Assembly (NCBI GenBank): GCA_025336685.1
Contig: GCA_025336685.1_4717.1
From: Escherichia coli
Lineage (GTDB): Bacteria; Pseudomonadota; Gammaproteobacteria; Enterobacterales; Enterobacteriaceae
Direction: 5' to 3' (one strand)
Length of the DNA: 64,000 nucleotides
The notes beneath the pieces are model-generated. The model worked only from the letters and a program-made list of their open reading frames with translations. It searched no databases and was not told where the DNA came from. This document shows, piece after piece, positions 20,806 through 42,937 of the stretch; within the stretch, counting starts at the first letter, position 1, and each line of letters opens with the position of its first letter. A program made the position numbers and the translations under genes.

Positions 20806-21108
20806 TTAACCTCTACCGTCGAGCCACAAGTTGTATTTCTCACGAGCGTCGGGATCGCGATAGATGCGACGATACCTTAATTCCGGTAATAATCCGGTTC
20901 GCACTAACTCATCCGTTAACTTTCTACGACGTTCTACGCCGTTATGGATACGACGTAACTCACGAAAGTTAAGCGGTGTTTGTTTCATTAGAACCCCCAT
21001 TACGATCGGGCGATGATCAATTTCATACAGCGATAATACCCCACGTATTTCATCTAATACCCGCTCGCGATCGATTAGTATTCGATCATGATATTTTAAT
21101 TGTTCCAT
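20806..21108 (-). CDS. hypothetical protein (100 aa)
   Basis: ORF in the lysis-like cassette; no motif. Confidence 0.35.
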   Translation of the reverse strand: MEQLKYHDRILIDRERVLDEIRGVLSLYEIDHRPIVMGVLMKQTPLNFRELRRIHNGVERRRKLTDELVRTGLLPELRYRRIYRDPDAREKYNLWLDGRG

Positions 21109-21134
21109 AACAGTCGCTCTCGTTTCAGGGGGAG

Positions 21135-21338
21135 TTAAGTATTGTGTTTATTCCTACCTACATTCCTCAACAGTGTAACGATAACGAATACCGCCACCAT
21201 CAAGAAGACGAACCATAACCCGACATTAATTCGGGCGGCTGGTACATCCACCATAAGGAGCATCGTCCCACAAAACCCAAGGACTATCCATACTAACATC
21301 ATCCCTATCAACCCCCGCAGCAACTTAAGCCAGATCAT
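21135..21338 (-). CDS. small membrane protein (67 aa), holin candidate
   Basis: Two hydrophobic helices (LIGMMLVWIVLGFCGTMLLMV and LWFVFLMVAVFVIVTLL); start preceded by TAAGGAGGAG. Confidence 0.4.
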   Translation of the reverse strand: MIWLKLLRGLIGMMLVWIVLGFCGTMLLMVDVPAARINVGLWFVFLMVAVFVIVTLLRNVGRNKHNT

Positions 21339-21511: not shown

Positions 21512-21721
21512 TTATACATAGGAGATTAAACGTTGAATGATTTTTACTTTGCCTTTGCCTGGACCTTTCTTGCGACGATTCAATAGACGGATACGGTTTC
21601 CAATTACGGAATCGCCGTCATAATCAGCACGCAACTGTGGTGGGAGAGCAAGATGTTCGCGATTGACACCCGGGTTGTTATAAAAACGATTGAAACTTAA
21701 AAGATGGTTAGTTGGAATCAT
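21512..21721 (-). CDS. small basic protein with RRKKGPGKGK motif
   Basis: Shares the motif (I/L)xxRxx(K/R)KKGPxKGK with three small ORFs at 39.9-40.4 kb; ORF-track start is TTG, first ATG at 21719-21721. Confidence 0.4.
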   Translation of the reverse strand: MIPTNHLLSFNRFYNNPGVNREHLALPPQLRADYDGDSVIGNRIRLLNRRKKGPGKGKVKIIQRLISYV

Positions 21722-21739: not shown

Positions 21740-22090
21740 TTATTTACCAAGATAGAGGTATTCGCCACCCTGAATAACACCGGTTGATGGGTCAACCAGT
21801 ATGCGAACCCGCGCGTAGGTCTTGAAAGAGGGATTGAAAACTTCGAAGTCAGCCACTTTCAATTTCACGCTGGGGTTGGTAGGGTTTTTAACTCCTGGAA
21901 GTTCTTTCGGTAATCCGAAGTCGACTCCATATTCTTCAAGGTCTGCTGGTGTCATGCTCTCCATGGCCATGTAGATTGCTTTTGCTTTATCGTAAACCTC
22001 TGGGCTATCCAGCAACCCAGCCTGCGCTGAACCGACAACACTACCGAACAGAATAGCAACAGCAACAAACAATTTAGTTAACGTTTTCAT
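21740..22090 (-). CDS. secreted/periplasmic protein (116 aa)
   Basis: N-terminal signal peptide MKTLTKLFVAVAILFGSVVGSAQA. Confidence 0.5.
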   Translation of the reverse strand: MKTLTKLFVAVAILFGSVVGSAQAGLLDSPEVYDKAKAIYMAMESMTPADLEEYGVDFGLPKELPGVKNPTNPSVKLKVADFEVFNPSFKTYARVRILVDPSTGVIQGGEYLYLGK

Positions 22091-22126: not shown

Positions 22127-22549
22127 TTAACGTACGGCTGCTACGCTGTTAGCGCATGCCTGAATATCATCGGTATTTACGATGATGGTTTCGTTAAACG
22201 CACGAATGCGTGCGCGACGGGCTTCTTTAAGGCTGGCGATTGCGTTAGCAGCTTGATCTGTATTCGCAAGGCTAATAACCGGGATCAAACGCATGTCAGG
22301 ACTGCAGATATTCAATGCTTGGTATACACGGCCGTTGATTCCTACGGTATCAGACATCGGATAGTGCGCACGGCATTGAAATTGACCCATGACAACAAGC
22401 GAACGATCGGAGATACCAATCTGATAACGACCGTCTTCGCTGTAGGTGTAACAGTTATTCCCACGAGCCATCCAGTTAGCTTGTGCTTGTGCACTAACAA
22501 AAGCCAGGGTAGCGACGATAGCGAATGCGATATTTTTGAACAGTTTCAT
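22127..22549 (-). CDS. secreted/periplasmic protein (about 141 aa)
   Basis: Signal peptide MKLFKNIAFAIVATLAFVSAQAQA from the internal ATG at 22547-22549. Confidence 0.5.
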   Translation of the reverse strand: MKLFKNIAFAIVATLAFVSAQAQANWMARGNNCYTYSEDGRYQIGISDRSLVVMGQFQCRAHYPMSDTVGINGRVYQALNICSPDMRLIPVISLANTDQAANAIASLKEARRARIRAFNETIIVNTDDIQACANSVAAVR

Positions 22550-22585
22550 GATAAAGATCCTTATTGAAATAAAATCGGTATAAAG

Positions 22586-22601
22586 CCCCCCATTTAGGGG
22601 G
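22586..22601 (-). terminator. short terminator hairpin
   Basis: CCCCC-ATTTA-GGGGG followed on the minus strand by a U-rich run. Confidence 0.4.
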
Positions 22602-22607
22602 ACCTGA

Positions 22608-22925
22608 TTAGTTTGCACTTAAGAAATGACCCAGAACCGTTACGATTGGAAACAGTCCCGTAACCGTATTATCGCCAGAAAACATCATCTTTGAGTCGTT
22701 AACGGTGATGAAACGGATGTCGGTTGCAGACCCATCGATAGCGACAAAACGCATCGAGTTCGGTGGAAGATCCTCAACAACTTCCACGAGGTGTTCACGA
22801 TTTTCAAAGGCTTCTTTAACACGACGCATGAAACGAATCAATGTTCCTTCAGCGTCGGCTTCCAAATGACCTAAGATATCGCGATTATTACGAATAGCGA
22901 ATACAGCCATTTTAAACATACACAT
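22608..22925 (-). CDS. hypothetical protein (105 aa)
   Basis: ORF with AAGAGGA SD; conserved 17-mer and a 12-bp hairpin lie upstream. Confidence 0.45.
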   Translation of the reverse strand: MCMFKMAVFAIRNNRDILGHLEADAEGTLIRFMRRVKEAFENREHLVEVVEDLPPNSMRFVAIDGSATDIRFITVNDSKMMFSGDNTVTGLFPIVTVLGHFLSAN

Positions 22926-38515: not shown

Positions 38516-39149
38516 CGTTATTGATACCCTCTATTAGTTGTACCGCAACCTCTCTTTCGGTGTTGTAAAAGAACTTGCGATGGAACCGAACAAGAAGCCT
38601 TTCAAATTTACGTTGCACGATCTTTTTGCGTTCGATATGGCCCAGGGAGAGCAAAGCACCCATGCAACGTACCGCCTGTTCAAGAACTTGTTTCGCGGTA
38701 TCATGATCATCCGGCAACGGTAAATCTTCTTCGTCGTCTTTAGCGATAAGACGTCTAATGATGTTATCGATGCGTATCTCATCGCCGTTAATAAAAGCAC
38801 CTTTCTCCCATTCATCAAACCGTTGATGGATTTGACGTTGTAGGTTGGCCCTATCTTCCGTTAACTCTTTCAACTGGTTTTCTAAGTTGAATACGGTACG
38901 GCGATCTGTTTCAGTGAATCTTTCCGACTCTTTATACCACCAATCATTACGTGCCAGTAAATCGTTGACACGCGATACCATCCGACGACATTCACCAACA
39001 AGTCCATCACCATTCGGTAACTCTGTGCCGAAATAACATTTGTATTTATAACGCGTAACACGGATTAAACGTTTCGCTAGAAAACCTTGTTTTTCCAGTT
39101 TCTTCTTCAGCTGTATGTATTTCTCTTCTTTTGTTTCCATTAATTCCAT
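38505..39149 (-). CDS. hypothetical protein (214 aa), AT-rich block
   Basis: ORF, no motif. Confidence 0.4.
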   Translation of the reverse strand: MELMETKEEKYIQLKKKLEKQGFLAKRLIRVTRYKYKCYFGTELPNGDGLVGECRRMVSRVNDLLARNDWWYKESERFTETDRRTVFNLENQLKELTEDRANLQRQIHQRFDEWEKGAFINGDEIRIDNIIRRLIAKDDEEDLPLPDDHDTAKQVLEQAVRCMGALLSLGHIERKKIVQRKFERLLVRFHRKFFYNTEREVAVQLIEGINNDEL

Positions 39150-39538
39150 GATGTTGTACCTCGTTCAGCAATCAGGAGGGTCGTGGTTGTGCTTTTCACT
39201 AATCTATTAAAGTCTTGATATATCCGCCTGAGGGATGATTTCAAATTGCAATAACGGTTGAAATAAACCTTCAGGTCATCTTTTGTCACCGTCTCCGTAT
39301 TTATTTTCGTAGAAACACCGAGATCGATAAACTCTTTTCTTAATTGGGATAATTCGTCAAGAAGTCGATGATGGCTTAGATAAATAATAGATTTATCGGA
39401 TAACAACTCGCCGGTTATCCGGCTCTGGCGTTCATCGAGATATTGGAGCCGCCATTCAATTCGCTTACGTAATTTATCAAGTAAATCAACAAAAGCGGTA
39501 TAGCTGTTAACGGCTAGGTTAACTTGACTCGCTATCAT
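39140..39538 (-). CDS. hypothetical protein (132 aa), AT-rich block
   Basis: ORF, no motif. Confidence 0.4.
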   Translation of the reverse strand: MIASQVNLAVNSYTAFVDLLDKLRKRIEWRLQYLDERQSRITGELLSDKSIIYLSHHRLLDELSQLRKEFIDLGVSTKINTETVTKDDLKVYFNRYCNLKSSLRRIYQDFNRLVKSTTTTLLIAERGTTSWN

Positions 39539-39885
39539 TCCACATTCTCCGTTATATGCTTTAAACTGTTACGTATACTTCTCAATCGATGGTTAAATCC
39601 GGAACGATAACATTTCCGTTCAAACCGTGCCGCTCGCGATTTATTCGCCTGATGAAGCTGTTCGTTCACCTGCGACGCTATACGTAAACGCCGCAATAAA
39701 GACCTCAGCCGAACGACAACCAACGGCTGTTCTTTTACCTTCTCTAGTTTGAGTAAATCGTCAATACGAAACTTTATTTCGATAATCTGATTCCTGTTTT
39801 TGCGGTACTGATGAATATACCAACATCGACGAAAATAGGCGATGCTAAACATAGGGTAGGTCCTTTTCAACGCCACCTCCAACAA
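39535..39885 (-). CDS. hypothetical protein (116 aa), AT-rich block
   Basis: ORF, basic, no motif. Confidence 0.4.
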   Translation of the reverse strand: MLEVALKRTYPMFSIAYFRRCWYIHQYRKNRNQIIEIKFRIDDLLKLEKVKEQPLVVVRLRSLLRRLRIASQVNEQLHQANKSRAARFERKCYRSGFNHRLRSIRNSLKHITENVE

Positions 39886-40070
39886 TAAAACGGATTAGGT
39901 GCTTTATGGTATTTATAAATACCCACTTTCTTCCGTCTGCCTTTACCCGGTCCTCGTTTAATACGTTTGTTATAAACACGACCCAAATATCGAGTGACGA
40001 TAGATCGGGATAAATACATCGGATCGATATAATCCAGAGTACCCGCTTCTGTTTCTTCGAGACATTGCAT
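39867..40070 (-). CDS. small basic protein with KRGPGKGRRKK motif
   Basis: Paralog of the 21512..21721 product (DYxD...RxxxxKRGPGKGRR). Confidence 0.4.
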   Translation of the reverse strand: MQCLEETEAGTLDYIDPMYLSRSIVTRYLGRVYNKRIKRGPGKGRRKKVGIYKYHKAPNPFYCWRWR

Positions 40071-40096
40071 ACGTAACTCCTCTTTCCTCTAAGAAG

Positions 40097-40300
40097 TCAA
40101 TCCAGCATAAGCCATGGCATCGCTTTCGCGATAGAATCCACCGCAGCATTTGCTATCCTTCGTTCAGTCGTTGGTACCACATGCGCCACGAACCGTTTCC
40201 CTTTATTGCAACCTTTCTTGTGTTTTCCTTTGACCAAACGAACACCAATCATGTCGTTGATAACATGATTTAGTATGTGGCGCTGTAGAGAATTAATCAT
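40097..40300 (-). CDS. small basic protein with HKKGCNKGKR motif
   Basis: Same family; first ATG at 40298-40300 (ORF track starts at GTG 40303). Confidence 0.4.
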   Translation of the reverse strand: MINSLQRHILNHVINDMIGVRLVKGKHKKGCNKGKRFVAHVVPTTERRIANAAVDSIAKAMPWLMLD

Positions 40301-40439
40301 CACTTTTACTCCAGGCAGAGAAGATTCTTGGTTTTAGTTCTATCTGTCCGCATATCCAGGTGTATCTCCATTTACCTTTACGAGGACCTTTCTTATTTTT
40401 AACACCTATCAGAATACGATAAGGGTATGACCAAGCCAT
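40293..40439 (-). CDS. small basic protein (48 aa) with NKKGPRKGKW motif, below the ORF-track cut-off
   Basis: ATG 40437-40439 preceded by AGGAG with 6-nt spacing; stop overlaps the next gene start; same KKGPxKGK motif. Confidence 0.4.
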   Translation of the reverse strand: MAWSYPYRILIGVKNKKGPRKGKWRYTWICGQIELKPRIFSAWSKSDD

Positions 40440-40810: not shown

Positions 40811-41107
40811 TTATACCGCCACCTTAGCCTTGATAGCAGGGTGTGATTGATAACCGACGAATACAAAGTCTTCGTAGCGGTAATCCGTAATACTTTCCGG
40901 TTTACGTACGATTGTTAGCTTCGGTAATGGATACGGCTCACGACTAAGTTGCTCTTTAACCTGTTCGAAATGGTTGTGATAGATGTGGCAATCCCCACCC
41001 GTCCACACGAACTCACCAACGTCCATATTCAACTGCTGGGCAAGCATATGCGTTAGCAACGAATATGATGCGATGTTGAATGGAACACCTAAAAATACGT
41101 CAGCACT
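40811..41107 (-). CDS. thyA: thymidylate synthase, exon 2 (C-terminal 98 aa)
   Basis: Begins [15 protein letters not shown] and ends PAIKAKVAV, matching the ThyA C-terminus; joins in frame to exon 1 (...LSCQLYQR|SADVFLG). Confidence 0.85.
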
Positions 41108-42214
41108 CATTCTGTTCAGATAAGGTCGTTAATCTTATCCCGTTAAAATAACAGCTGTAGATTATCTCTACAGTTCGGACTATATCACGATCTCCTTCCC
41201 TGGAGACCCCTCCCGTTTCACACCCACTTGGGCGTTACGCTACTCATCACTATTTTTATTCATCCGTTTAGTGCTTTCGCTAGTCTCTGGGCATTCTTCT
41301 ACAAGTCTGTACGATTCAAATTTGGGATTTTTACTACCTAATCGATAAAGTATCGTTGCCGGAACAACACCTAACTGCCGAGCCGCCTCAGTTAAAGAGA
41401 CATACTGAATTCCGTCGATTTCCACTTTACGTGCTGTAGTGGGAATCTTCCCCTTATTCACTTCGGCAAGACGACGTCGCGTCTCTTCTGTATGGTGTCG
41501 CCCATAGAACGAATTCTTTTCCCCGGTTCGGGTTTTTGCAAACTCTGATATCTTTCGACGAGTTTCTTCGCCAACCTTTACACCTAGGCGTCTAGCCCTA
41601 GACGCCGCGATGTTTTCGGGAGTGCATACTTTTCGCCGAATGAGTTCACGTGTTTCCGGTGTATGTGTTCGACCATACATCCCGTTACGTTCGCCCGGAT
41701 TGCCATGAACAGCGCGCCTTTGTTCAGGCGACATCGAAGCGAATCGATCGTTAACGACTTTAGTTATTTTCTCGATTATGTCATCGCGACGTGGGTTTCT
41801 CGATAAATTATCACCGCCTAAAGCACCTTTCCCGATATTGAGAGATGCTTCTTCCGGGATGCTATCGATATACACCTGCTCTAAAGCGTATGCCTCTTCT
41901 CGGGTACTACATTCATCGATATCCACGGTGATAAATCCACCACGGTTATGGATATCTTGTAATTTAGCGTTGTGGTGAGAACCATTACGCAAAGCCGATC
42001 TGTGCGTAGCTAACCGCTGATTAATGTTCCCGGTGCTACCAACATAGACATCGCCGTCTTGAGTACATAACCGATATACTACTGGTTTTTTCATACTGCC
42101 TCCTTTAAAAGAGAGACAGACTTGTAGAAGGTTAGCAACGGATTAGCCCGTAGGCTTTCCCGTTTTAAGGAGGTTATTCGACGTAGCTCACGCTACGAAG
42201 GCGCAGTTGCGTTT
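41108..42214 (-). mobile_element. group I self-splicing intron (1107 nt) interrupting thyA, carrying a homing endonuclease gene
   Basis: Exon 1 ends in U (CAGCGU), intron ends in G (AAUG) before exon 2; P7 strands CCAGAGACUAG (plus 41279-41289) and GAUAUAGUCC (41177-41186); P9 hairpin CUGUAGA-GAUAA-UCUACAG (41155-41173); P8-like hairpin GGUCUCC...GGAGAUC. Confidence 0.8.
41240..42094 (-). CDS. intron-encoded GIY-YIG homing endonuclease, I-TevI-like
   Basis: N-terminal VYRL...DVYVGST GIY-YIG module with conserved Arg/Glu; repeated NGMYGRTHTPETR / NSFYGRHHTEETR NUMOD3-like motifs; C-terminal HTH; AAAGGAGG SD inside the intron. Confidence 0.8.
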   Translation of the reverse strand: MKKPVVYRLCTQDGDVYVGSTGNINQRLATHRSALRNGSHHNAKLQDIHNRGGFITVDIDECSTREEAYALEQVYIDSIPEEASLNIGKGALGGDNLSRNPRRDDIIEKITKVVNDRFASMSPEQRRAVHGNPGERNGMYGRTHTPETRELIRRKVCTPENIAASRARRLGVKVGEETRRKISEFAKTRTGEKNSFYGRHHTEETRRRLAEVNKGKIPTTARKVEIDGIQYVSLTEAARQLGVVPATILYRLGSKNPKFESYRLVEECPETSESTKRMNKNSDE

Positions 42215-42937
42215 ACGCTGGTAAAGCTGACAGGATAAAGCACGTGTTGGTACGTTATGCGCATTCAACCAAAGTTCTGTTTCACTGCGTCGTACATCAT
42301 CCGTAACCCACTGGGTTCTTAATACGTCGTTGCGCTGGACATAATCAACGCGTTCATCGAGTGTGAGTTCGTGGGTATAGAACTGATAGAATGAATGGCA
42401 CGGAGCGAGATGCATATCGTCTAAATCACCTACGTTCCATGCGCTAACGATGATCCGTCGAGAATCAGGATCTTCTTTAAGCTGACGCATCACGTTTGCA
42501 ATCTGATCGTGATGTCTAACATACACGAGGTGTTTTAGCATACCGTCATTAAGAATGCCGAAATATTCATAGCCGCGTTGCATCAACTCACGAGTACGTT
42601 CTGTATCGTGCGGAACAACCACTTTATAGTCGATCCATTCCCGCCATTGTTTGCCGTAAATCGGTCCTAGATTCCCTTCTTCGTCAGCCCATTCATTCCA
42701 GATACGAACACCGTTATCTTGAAGATAAGCAACGTTTGTGTCGCCGTTAAGAAACCAGAGCAGTTCGTGGATAACGCTCTTAAGGTGAATCTTCTTGGTG
42801 GTTACCAGCGGAAATCCTTTCTTCAAGTCAAAACGCATCTGACGTCCGAATACGGAACGGGTCCCGGTCCCCGTGCGGTCGGCTTTATCGCGACCGTTAT
42901 CCATGATGTCTTGCAAAAGGTCCAAATACTGTTTCAT
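42215..42937 (-). CDS. thyA: thymidylate synthase, exon 1 (N-terminal 241 aa)
   Basis: [12 protein letters not shown]...DRTGTGT...[12 protein letters not shown]...[23 protein letters not shown]...LSCQLYQR: ThyA motifs including the catalytic Cys loop; the ORF-track frame runs on into the intron. Confidence 0.85.

What the first reader, a model, noticed from the sequence alone, without database searches (positions are those of the whole stretch)
21512..21721. Family of small basic proteins sharing a KKGPxKGK motif, member 1
This 69-aa product (…ADYDGDSVIGNRIRLLNRRKKGPGKGKVKI…) shares a clear motif, (I/L)xxRxx(K/R)KKGPxKGK, with three adjacent small genes at 39867..40439. The motif resembles an AT-hook-like basic patch. 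Four copies of a tiny basic protein, one of them 18 kb away from the others, points to an uncharacterised nucleic-acid-binding family.
Basis: seen in the sequence. Interest (0 to 1): 0.5.

Follow-up and report, generated by a model that had tools for sequence, protein, structure and literature searches.

The report
Four small basic beta-hairpin phage proteins
A Goslar-like giant E. coli phage carries four tiny, strongly positively charged proteins, found only in this phage genus, that share a lysine-rich hairpin tip; they are real conserved genes, are not AT-hooks, and their function (probably gripping DNA or RNA) is untested.

Summary
The window is a Goslarvirus (nucleus-forming jumbo phage of E. 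coli, about 92% identical to phage Goslar). Four minus-strand ORFs carry K-[KR]-G-[PC]-x-K-G-[KR]: m1 21512..21721, m2 39867..40070, m3 40097..40303 and m4 40293..40439. The motif occurs exactly four times in all six frames, against 0.03 expected, and exactly four times in the whole 237-kb Goslar genome.

They are orthologues of Goslar gp102, gp137, YP_009820823.1 and gp139, all annotated as hypothetical. They are under purifying selection (dN/dS 0.03–0.42), with synonymous changes inside the motif codons. The gene order is conserved in divergent relatives.

AlphaFold2 places the motif at the tip of a long two-stranded beta-hairpin (pLDDT about 90 in m4). All four proteins have pI 10.1–11.0.

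Pfam, PHROGs, PDB sequence and fold searches, and a search of 1.84 billion proteins found no relatives outside the genus. The AT-hook reading fails: there is no GRP core, and the motif is a structured turn rather than a disordered patch.

Nucleic-acid binding through a basic beta-ribbon tip, as in the HU/IHF arm, is the most plausible mechanism but is only inferred. The family is a genuine, undescribed, genus-restricted orphan family of moderate interest.

The parts
21512..21721 (-). m1: 69-aa basic protein (pI 11.0), orthologue of Goslar gp102. It has a variable N-terminus and a conserved C-terminal hairpin, ...NRIRLLNRRKKGPGKGKVKIIQRLISYV.
   Evidence: ORF. 71% aa identity to Goslar gp102. 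dN/dS is 0.81 for codons 1-32 (dN 0.290, dS 0.356) and 0.18 for codons 33-69. Length variants of 63-96 aa occur in relatives.
21548..21571 (-). m1 motif KKGPGKGK (hairpin turn).
   Evidence: Three synonymous and no non-synonymous differences from Goslar within the 8 codons.
39867..40070 (-). m2: 67-aa basic protein (pI 10.1), orthologue of Goslar gp137. GAGGAG lies 6 nt upstream of the ATG.
   Evidence: dN/dS 0.22-0.36.
39936..39959 (-). m2 motif KRGPGKGR.
   Evidence: Three synonymous changes versus Goslar.
40097..40303 (-). m3: 67/68-aa basic protein (pI 10.7; ATG at 40300 or GTG at 40303), orthologue of Goslar YP_009820823.1. Predicted helix, hairpin, helix.
   Evidence: AF2 pLDDT 66, H4-17 E20-29 E35-43 H45-65. 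dN/dS 0.03-0.24 at dS up to 1.3.
40196..40219 (-). m3 motif KKGCNKGK. Cys replaces Pro; Tyr or Val occur at that position in some relatives.
40293..40439 (-). m4: 48-aa basic protein (pI 10.2), orthologue of Goslar gp139. It is essentially the bare hairpin. AGGAG lies 6 nt upstream of the ATG.
   Evidence: AF2 strands 3-14 and 24-35, loop NKKGPRKGK, pLDDT 92 and 90 over residues 11-30. dN/dS 0.04-0.37.
40371..40394 (-). m4 motif KKGPRKGK.
40293..40300 (-). 8-nt overlap ATGATTAA between the m4 stop and the m3 start. This suggests translational coupling (inferred).
   Evidence: Sequence. The same overlap is present in Goslar, L003 and L134 gene calls.

Best explanation
The four ORFs are real genes. 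They form a paralogous family found only in Goslarvirus, coding for proteins of 5.8-8.1 kDa with pI above 10.

Their only conserved core is a long antiparallel beta-hairpin. Its turn is K-[KR]-G-[PC]-x-K-G-[KR], a Gly/Pro-punctuated ring of lysines at the tip of a beta-ribbon. The parts flanking the hairpin differ between paralogues: a variable N-terminus in m1, two helices in m3, and a short C-terminal P...W tail in m2 to m4.

The most likely mode of action is inferred, not shown. The protruding basic tip would contact the phosphate backbone or a groove of DNA or RNA, in the way the Pro-tipped beta-ribbon arms of HU/IHF or the basic hairpin extensions of ribosomal proteins do. The hydrophobic face of the ribbon would be buried either by the flanking helices or by oligomerisation. 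Because m4, m3 and m2 are adjacent and m4/m3 appear translationally coupled, they may act together.

Shown: the genes, the family, purifying selection, restriction to the genus, and the predicted hairpin with the motif at its turn. Inferred: ligand, oligomeric state, timing and location of action.
For: Genes and family:
- Exactly four motif sites in the window and four in the whole Goslar genome, against 0.03 expected.
- Orthologues in Goslar and about 110 variants from contigs of 235-250 kb.
- Conserved order thyA, gp140, m4, m3, m2 in divergent relatives L003 and L134.

Coding:
- dN/dS 0.03-0.42, with dS up to 1.3 for m3.
- Synonymous-only changes inside the motif codons.
- The paralogues use different codons for the motif, and there is no DNA-level repeat.
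- Shine-Dalgarno sequences and the m4/m3 overlap.

Structure:
- AF2 places the motif at the hairpin turn in both models. The hairpin of m4 has pLDDT about 90.
- In m4, one face of the predicted ribbon is almost entirely aromatic or aliphatic (W3, Y5, Y7, I9, I11, V13, I29, I33, L35). This is my reading.

Charge: net +8 to +11, pI 10.1-11.0.

Motif position 4 is always P, C, Y or V. This fits a wedge residue at an arm tip, as in HU/IHF (from my own knowledge). hhalign, without any significance, lays KGPGKGKV on the HU arm tip RNPQTGKE.

None of the four is listed in the virion LC-MS/MS table of Goslar (bioRxiv 10.64898/2026.04.21.720040). This fits an intracellular rather than structural role.
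Against: - No sequence or fold relationship to any nucleic-acid-binding domain was found: Pfam, the PDB by sequence, Foldseek against PDB and BFVD, and hhalign against HU and L24 at under 1% probability.
- There are no expression, localisation or binding data for any member.
- The tertiary models are weak (pTM 0.35; m3 pLDDT 66).
- The same 8-residue turn recurs in unrelated proteins, namely portal-like proteins, HNH-type endonucleases, phrog_32989 and the antibody VH PGKG turn. It may therefore be mainly a favourable structural turn.
- A high pI alone does not identify the ligand.
- m1 sits among signal-peptide and membrane proteins near an endolysin.
- Homology among the four subfamilies outside the hairpin is statistically weak.
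- Small Lys-rich proteins are easily missed by tryptic mass spectrometry, so their absence from the virion table is weak evidence.
Confidence: 0.4

Rival explanations
1. The proteins bind other proteins rather than nucleic acid. On this reading the basic hairpin docks on an acidic surface of a host or phage protein, for example a defence protein, RNA polymerase, the ribosome or shell-associated machinery, and the variable flanks set specificity.
For: - The family is a genus-restricted orphan.
- The m1 N-terminus is near-neutral or fast-evolving (dN/dS 0.81) with many indel variants, next to an invariant hairpin.
- There are several paralogues with divergent flanks.
- Frameshifted or truncated copies occur in some contigs (P0100, P0115, P0116), which suggests an accessory rather than a core function.
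- All neighbouring genes are also orphans.
Against: No partner is indicated by context. The strictly conserved part is a generic poly-Lys/Gly turn rather than a shaped interface. No match in any library.
Confidence: 0.25
2. The proteins are membrane-active cationic beta-hairpin peptides or accessory lysis factors. An amphipathic Trp/Tyr/Arg/Lys-rich hairpin would insert into or perturb the envelope. m1 would belong to a lysis cassette.
For: - m1 lies between two signal-peptide proteins (21740..22090 and 22127..22618) and a 67-aa protein with two hydrophobic segments (21135..21338), about 1 kb from the SleB-like endolysin orthologue.
- m4 is a 48-aa aromatic and cationic hairpin with one hydrophobic face.
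Against: - m2 to m4 are in an unrelated block next to thyA.
- None of the four has a signal peptide or a transmembrane segment (sequences).
- No similarity to known cationic lysis peptides was found; no library covering them was searched specifically.
- The conserved element is the polar tip, not the hydrophobic face.
Confidence: 0.1
3. The proteins are domesticated or decaying fragments of DNA-binding modules from homing endonucleases, retained beside an intron and endonuclease hot spot.
For: - The cluster lies about 350 bp downstream of thyA. In this window and in L003, thyA carries an insertion with a GIY-YIG endonuclease gene.
- Goslar encodes several HNH_3/NUMOD endonucleases.
- HNH-type endonucleases in IMG/VR contain ...GYGKMNMRFKKGPRKGKVKSALAHRV, close to m1's ...RRKKGPGKGKVKIIQRL.
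Against: - None of 31 members matches HNH_3, AP2 or NUMOD in Pfam.
- The family profile does not hit any Goslar endonuclease.
- The genes are under purifying selection and syntenic across the genus, whether or not the thyA insertion is present.
Confidence: 0.1
4. The finding is an artefact. The ORFs would not be genes, and the motif would be a chance or DNA-level feature.
For: The ORFs are very short, there is no experimental evidence of expression, and similarity between subfamilies is weak.
Against: - The motif is enriched more than 100-fold over shuffles.
- dN/dS is well below 1, with synonymous changes inside the motif.
- Ribosome-binding sites are present.
- The genes are conserved in about 110 variants and annotated in RefSeq.
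- There is no nucleotide repeat.
Confidence: 0.03

Closest known systems
Escherichia phage vB_EcoM_Goslar gp102, gp137, YP_009820823.1 (between gp137 and gp139) and gp139, all annotated 'hypothetical protein'
   Same: Direct orthologues at 71-99% aa identity, with the same order, strand and neighbours.
   Different: m1 differs mostly in its N-terminal 32 residues. Nothing is known about the function of the Goslar proteins, and their relationship as a family sharing one motif is not annotated in the RefSeq record or mentioned in the paper library searched.
Beta-ribbon arms of HU/IHF (Bac_DNA_binding, PF00216)
   Same: A two-stranded basic beta-ribbon whose tip carries Gly, Pro and Lys/Arg (HU: R-N-P-Q-T-G-K). 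Small, basic proteins. This is the proposed working analogy: a tip in the groove with a hydrophobic wedge residue.
   Different: No homology: no Pfam hit and hhalign probability 0.09%. The family lacks the HU helical dimerisation body, and DNA binding has not been tested.
phrog_32989 (about 55-aa phage proteins of unknown function ending ...GTQRYRIKKGPNKGKIL)
   Same: Tiny basic phage proteins with an identical KKGPxKGK turn after a strand.
   Different: The motif sits at the extreme C-terminus with no second strand. The Goslar proteins do not match the PHROG model. hhalign aligns only 11 columns. These proteins were found by searching for the motif itself, so the resemblance is partly circular. 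The genomic contexts differ: T4-like neck genes and podovirus-like contigs.
GRF zinc finger (zf-GRF, PF06839; NEIL3 tandem GRF, PDB 7omk)
   Same: A ssDNA-binding mini-domain whose first hairpin reads v-r-K-x-G-x-N-K-G-R-x-F, like m3's KKGCNKGKRF. It was the only PDB sequence hit of the family profile (E = 0.21).
   Different: The hit is not significant and disappears with the core-only profile. Pfam gives no zf-GRF hit in 31 members. The Cys/His zinc ligands are absent or not conserved.
AT-hook (PF02178; core R-G-R-P)
   Same: A short Gly/Pro-containing basic patch.
   Different: No GRP core. The motif is predicted to be an ordered hairpin turn rather than an extended disordered peptide.

Membership tests
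Goslarvirus gp102 / gp137-gp139 orthologous groups | Sequence orthology and conserved gene order | tested here: met
   71-99% aa identity to the Goslar proteins and about 92-95% nt identity. The same neighbours are found in Goslar, L003, L004-L006 and L134.
AT-hook | Core tripeptide G-R-P (R-G-R-P) flanked by basic residues | tested here: not met
   No GRP in m1 to m4. Among 115 homologues only P0030 and P0048 contain it, through a Q-to-P change after the motif.
AT-hook | Lies in an intrinsically disordered segment that orders only on DNA | tested here: not met
   AF2 places the motif as the turn of a beta-hairpin. pLDDT is about 90 for m4 residues 11-30, and the same topology is predicted in m3.
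AT-hook | Binds the minor groove of AT-rich DNA | not testable with these tools
   Needs EMSA or footprinting.
zf-GRF | Match to the family model (PF06839) | tested here: not met
   No hit at E up to 10 in 31 members. The PDB profile hit to NEIL3 GRF has E = 0.21 and is lost with the core profile.
zf-GRF | Four conserved Cys/His zinc ligands | tested here: not met
   m1 has no Cys. The Cys residues in m2, m3 and m4 vary to Tyr, Val, Arg or Ser among orthologues.
HU/IHF (Bac_DNA_binding) | Sequence or profile match to the fold | tested here: not met
   No Pfam hit. hhalign against E. coli HU-alpha gives probability 0.09%.
KOW motif (L24/NusG) | Sequence or profile match | tested here: not met
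   No Pfam hit. hhalign against E. coli L24 gives probability 0.4%.
Ribosomal protein bS21 (phage-encoded S21) | Sequence or profile match | tested here: not met
   A shared PTTER string prompted the test. hhalign probability is 0.2% and there is no Pfam hit.
phrog_32989 | Match to the PHROG model over its length | tested here: not met
   No hit at E up to 10. hhalign aligns 11 columns only, at 86.6% probability. A profile of the environmental family scores the Goslar ORFs at E = 0.65 or worse.
HNH_3 / AP2 / NUMOD homing-endonuclease DNA-binding modules | Match to the Pfam models | tested here: not met
   No hit in 31 members. The family profile does not hit the Goslar endonuclease genes.

The most novel reading that the evidence does not exclude
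The KKGPxKGK hairpin proteins are a dedicated set of 'arm-only' architectural proteins, specific to this genus, that act on the phage genome or its transcripts inside the chimallivirus nucleus, as a minimal histone-like or RNA-chaperone system assembled from m4, m3 and m2. Alternatively, the invariant hairpin tip is a docking signal read by phage machinery such as the import system or the shell. Either reading would give a new small-protein module in phage-nucleus biology.
Probability: 0.1. Interest if true: 0.7.

Novelty: new variant of a known kind. Interest (0 to 1): 0.35.

Why it matters
Nucleus-forming jumbo phages are full of genus-specific small genes of unknown role. This study defines one such set as a coherent family with a clear, testable structural core: a basic beta-ribbon with an invariant tip. 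It has four copies per genome, about 110 natural variants, and a gene order that hints at a complex.

If the proteins bind DNA or RNA, they would be among the smallest beta-ribbon binders known. They could bear on how Goslar-type phages organise or express their enclosed genome. If they do not, they remain an accessory orphan family.

Practically, the result removes the AT-hook label. It also gives exact constructs for EMSA, localisation and knock-down experiments.

Tried and rejected
**Known families**
- Pfam and PHROGs scans of the four proteins and of 31 family members gave only sub-threshold noise such as ICMT, DUF7439 and RecR_C.
- AT-hook: rejected because there is no GRP core and the motif is an ordered turn.
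- zf-GRF: a single PDB hit at E = 0.21, not reproduced with the core profile, and no zinc ligands.
- KOW/L24, HU and bS21: tested by hhalign, all below 1% probability.

**Relatives outside the genus**
- tblastn against 50,697 phage records found only Goslar.
- A k-mer/HMMER search of 5.8 billion proteins found only Goslarvirus contigs.
- An exhaustive HMMER search of 1.84 billion representatives, with a profile weighted towards m3, found only family members plus one spurious repeat protein, P0117. That profile did not recover m1 or m4 representatives, so its reach for hairpin-only relatives is limited.
- An IMG/VR scan with the family profile returned only two Goslar-like contigs.

**Fold searches**
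- The m3 model against the PDB gave nothing with E below 1.8.
- Against BFVD it found only Goslar's own protein.
- The m4 hairpin was judged too simple to be worth searching.

**DNA-level repeat or mobile element**
- Only 10-11-nt matches at the motif codons were found.

**Motif as a general signal in many phage proteins**
- Rejected: there are only four sites in the 237-kb genome.

**Regulatory signals and neighbours**
- Promoter and terminator scans gave nothing above shuffles.
- Neighbouring genes gave no functional context.

**Literature**
- No paper mentions these genes, and no Goslar-wide expression or essentiality data are held in the library.

Full report
**Where the window comes from**

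Megablast of both loci against 50,697 phage records hits only Escherichia phage vB_EcoM_Goslar (Goslarvirus, a nucleus-forming jumbo phage of 237,307 bp), at about 92-93% identity. A recent survey expanded this genus from 1 to 237 genomes found in enterobacterial assemblies (PMC12768965). That explains the many close relatives found later.

**The observation**

- The ORF at 21512..21721 (-) and three adjacent ORFs at 39867..40070, 40097..40303 and 40293..40439 (-) exist as described. I call them m1 to m4.
- A six-frame scan for [KR][KR]G[PCAS]x[KR]G[KR] finds exactly four sites, one per ORF, all in the coding frame. Thirty shuffles of the window gave a mean of 0.03.
- I stitched together the whole Goslar genome. 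Strict and loose versions of the pattern again find only the four orthologous genes.
- A family HMM separates the four ORFs (E of 1e-14 or lower) from all 5,329 other ORFs of the window and Goslar (E above 1). The family therefore has four members per genome, and the motif is not a general tag on many proteins.
- The literal motifs are KKGPGKGK (m1), KRGPGKGR (m2), KKGCNKGK (m3) and KKGPRKGK (m4). What is shared is an Arg-containing strand of alternating hydrophobic residues before the motif and another strand after it.

**Are they genes?**

- The orthologues in Goslar are gp102, gp137, YP_009820823.1 and gp139, all annotated as hypothetical.
- Pairwise dN/dS among the window, Goslar and two divergent relatives (L003, L134) is 0.03-0.42 for nearly all pairs, with dS reaching 1.2-1.3 for m3. 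The exceptions are Goslar against the 96-aa m1 forms (0.70) and the nearly identical m3 copies of L003 and L134 (1.16, from one synonymous and four non-synonymous changes).
- Within the eight motif codons, the window and Goslar differ by three synonymous and no non-synonymous changes, in both m1 and m2.
- The four paralogues encode the motif with different codons, and blastn finds only 10-11-nt matches between them. Selection therefore acts on the protein, not on a DNA element.
- m4 and m2 have AGGAG or GAGGAG 6 nt upstream of the ATG. The m3 start overlaps the m4 stop (ATGATTAA), the usual arrangement for translational coupling.
- m1 is split in two: its first 32 codons evolve almost neutrally (dN/dS 0.81), while codons 33-69, which hold the hairpin, have dN/dS 0.18.
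- m1 also has length variants of 63, 64, 69, 83 and 96 aa. The 96-aa form contains a degenerate second copy of the strand (RERIRLLVDRKNSDNY).

**Distribution**

- A profile search of 5.8 billion proteins returned 115 hits, all small proteins. The longest contigs carrying them are 235-250 kb, the size of Goslarvirus genomes. Apart from a few truncated or frameshifted copies, they fall into the four subfamilies.
- An exhaustive HMMER search of 1.84 billion cluster representatives, with a profile weighted towards m3, found only family members and one spurious repeat protein.
- IMG/VR held only two Goslar-like contigs.
- The order thyA, gp140, m4, m3, m2 is kept in the divergent relatives L003 and L134. 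In L134, m4 has a 48-residue N-terminal extension.
- The family is therefore an orphan restricted to this genus.
- Homology between the four subfamilies is only modestly supported statistically. m1 and m2 detect each other at E about 0.02, and the others at E about 1. It rests mainly on the shared motif in the same structural setting, together with size, charge and tandem arrangement.

**Structure**

- AlphaFold2 with the family alignment predicts m3 as helix 4-17, strand 20-29, turn G-C-N-K-G, strand 35-43, helix 45-65 (pLDDT 66).
- It predicts m4 as a bare hairpin, strands 3-14 and 24-35, with the loop N-K-K-G-P-R-K-G-K. pLDDT is 92 and 90 over residues 11-30.
- The motif is thus the turn of a long beta-ribbon.
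- Reading the m4 register, one face is nearly all aromatic or aliphatic. This face must be buried by oligomerisation, or in m3 by the flanking helices (inference).
- All four proteins are strongly basic: pI 10.1-11.0, net charge +8 to +11.

**Comparison with known families**

- Pfam and PHROGs give nothing.
- The PDB profile search gave a single weak hit, the tandem GRF zinc fingers of NEIL3 (E = 0.21), whose hairpins read KdGeNKGRqF. The hit vanished with a core-only profile, Pfam zf-GRF does not match, and the Cys residues are not conserved. I therefore treat it as an analogy at most.
- The core-only profile instead picked out the PGKG turn of antibody VH framework 2. This shows that the string is a generally favourable hairpin turn.
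- hhalign against L24 (KOW), HU and bS21 gave probabilities below 1%.
- Foldseek against the PDB and against viral models found nothing beyond Goslar's own protein.
- The AT-hook idea fails on its defining features, the GRP core and a disordered context.

**The motif elsewhere**

- 62 of the 120 loci encode a different tiny protein family, phrog_32989, of unknown function, ending ...GTQRYRIKKGPNKGKIL.
- Others are portal-like proteins and HNH-type endonucleases in which the string again sits between two strand-like segments.
- hhalign links phrog_32989 to the Goslar family over 11 columns only. Because those sequences were selected by the motif, this is not evidence of homology.

**Context and literature**

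- m1 lies between two signal-peptide proteins and a small protein with two hydrophobic segments, near the SleB-like endolysin orthologue. That is a weak hint of a lysis neighbourhood.
- m2 to m4 lie downstream of thyA, among orphan genes.
- None of the four appears in the virion LC-MS/MS table of Goslar. Lys-rich 5-8 kDa proteins are, however, poor tryptic targets.
- No paper in the library mentions them, and no Goslar-wide expression or essentiality data were available.

**Mechanism**

I commit to the following as most likely, with a confidence of about 0.4. The proteins use the protruding Lys/Gly/Pro hairpin tip to bind nucleic acid, in the manner of the HU/IHF beta-ribbon arm. The hydrophobic residue at motif position 4 (P, C, Y or V) would act as a possible wedge, and the ribbon's hydrophobic face would mediate oligomerisation. 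m4, m3 and m2 may work together.

- Shown: the genes, the family, selection, the predicted hairpin and the charge.
- Inferred: the ligand, the assembly state and the site of action.
- Rivals: protein-binding host or defence modulators (0.25), membrane-active or lysis accessories (0.1), derivatives of endonuclease DNA-binding modules (0.1), and artefact (0.03).

**Verdict**

The finding is a real, previously undescribed paralogous family, but one restricted to a single phage genus and without functional evidence. Its interest is moderate.

Noticed in passing
window 40811..42937 (-): The thymidylate synthase gene is split. Exon 1 runs from 42937 to about 42234 and exon 2 from about 41094 to 40811. 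Between them lies an insert of about 1.14 kb carrying a 284-aa GIY-YIG/NUMOD3 (I-TevI-like) ORF at 41240..42094. The Goslar reference lacks the insert, and relative L003 has the same arrangement. Window 41108..41193 matches td genes of T4-like phages, so this is probably a td-type group I intron. Rfam, however, found no Intron_gpI.
   Followed up: partly
window 21108..21135, compared with Goslar 111547..111918: The Goslar gp100 gene (372 nt) appears to be missing from the window, between the gp099 and gp101 orthologues. The megablast match spans 2,833 nt in Goslar against 2,496 nt in the window.
   Followed up: no
window 39000..39532: This stretch does not align to Goslar. A 132-aa ORF (39140..39538) sits where Goslar has the 214-aa gp135, a mosaic replacement directly downstream of the cluster.
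   Followed up: no
IMG/VR loci L013-L127, e.g. L065:9737-9910, L030:2127-2291: A separate family of proteins of about 55 aa (phrog_32989, function unknown) ends in ...GTQRYRIKKGPNKGKIL. In T4-like contigs it sits between what look like the neck genes gp14 and gp15 (my reading of the ORF sequences, not checked against any library). It also occurs in podovirus-like contigs.
   Followed up: partly
L004-L006:4001-4291; proteins P0088, P0091, P0094-P0099: m1 exists in 63-, 64-, 69-, 83- and 96-aa forms across Goslarviruses. The 96-aa form carries an internal degenerate duplicate of the first strand (RERIRLLVDRKNSDNY), and the window's 69-aa form looks like a deletion derivative.
   Followed up: partly
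proteins P0100, P0115, P0116: Some contigs carry frameshifted or truncated m2 or m3, including an m3 read-through into another frame. These are either sequencing errors or occasional pseudogenes, which would hint that the genes are dispensable.
   Followed up: no
L134:4334-4624 (protein P0087): In one divergent relative, m4 is 96 aa long, with a 48-residue N-terminal extension that has no similarity to the upstream gene gp140.
   Followed up: no
window 39908..39923: A perfect 16-nt palindrome, GGTATTTATAAATACC, lies inside m2 (codons GIYKYH). It has one mismatch in Goslar. About one such palindrome is expected per 64 kb by chance.
   Followed up: no
Goslar record, locus tag of YP_009820823.1: The tools print the locus tag of the Goslar m3 orthologue as HOV27_xxxxx, and they mask the corresponding 'gp' number in every output, including paper searches. 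I therefore refer to the gene by its protein accession.
   Followed up: partly
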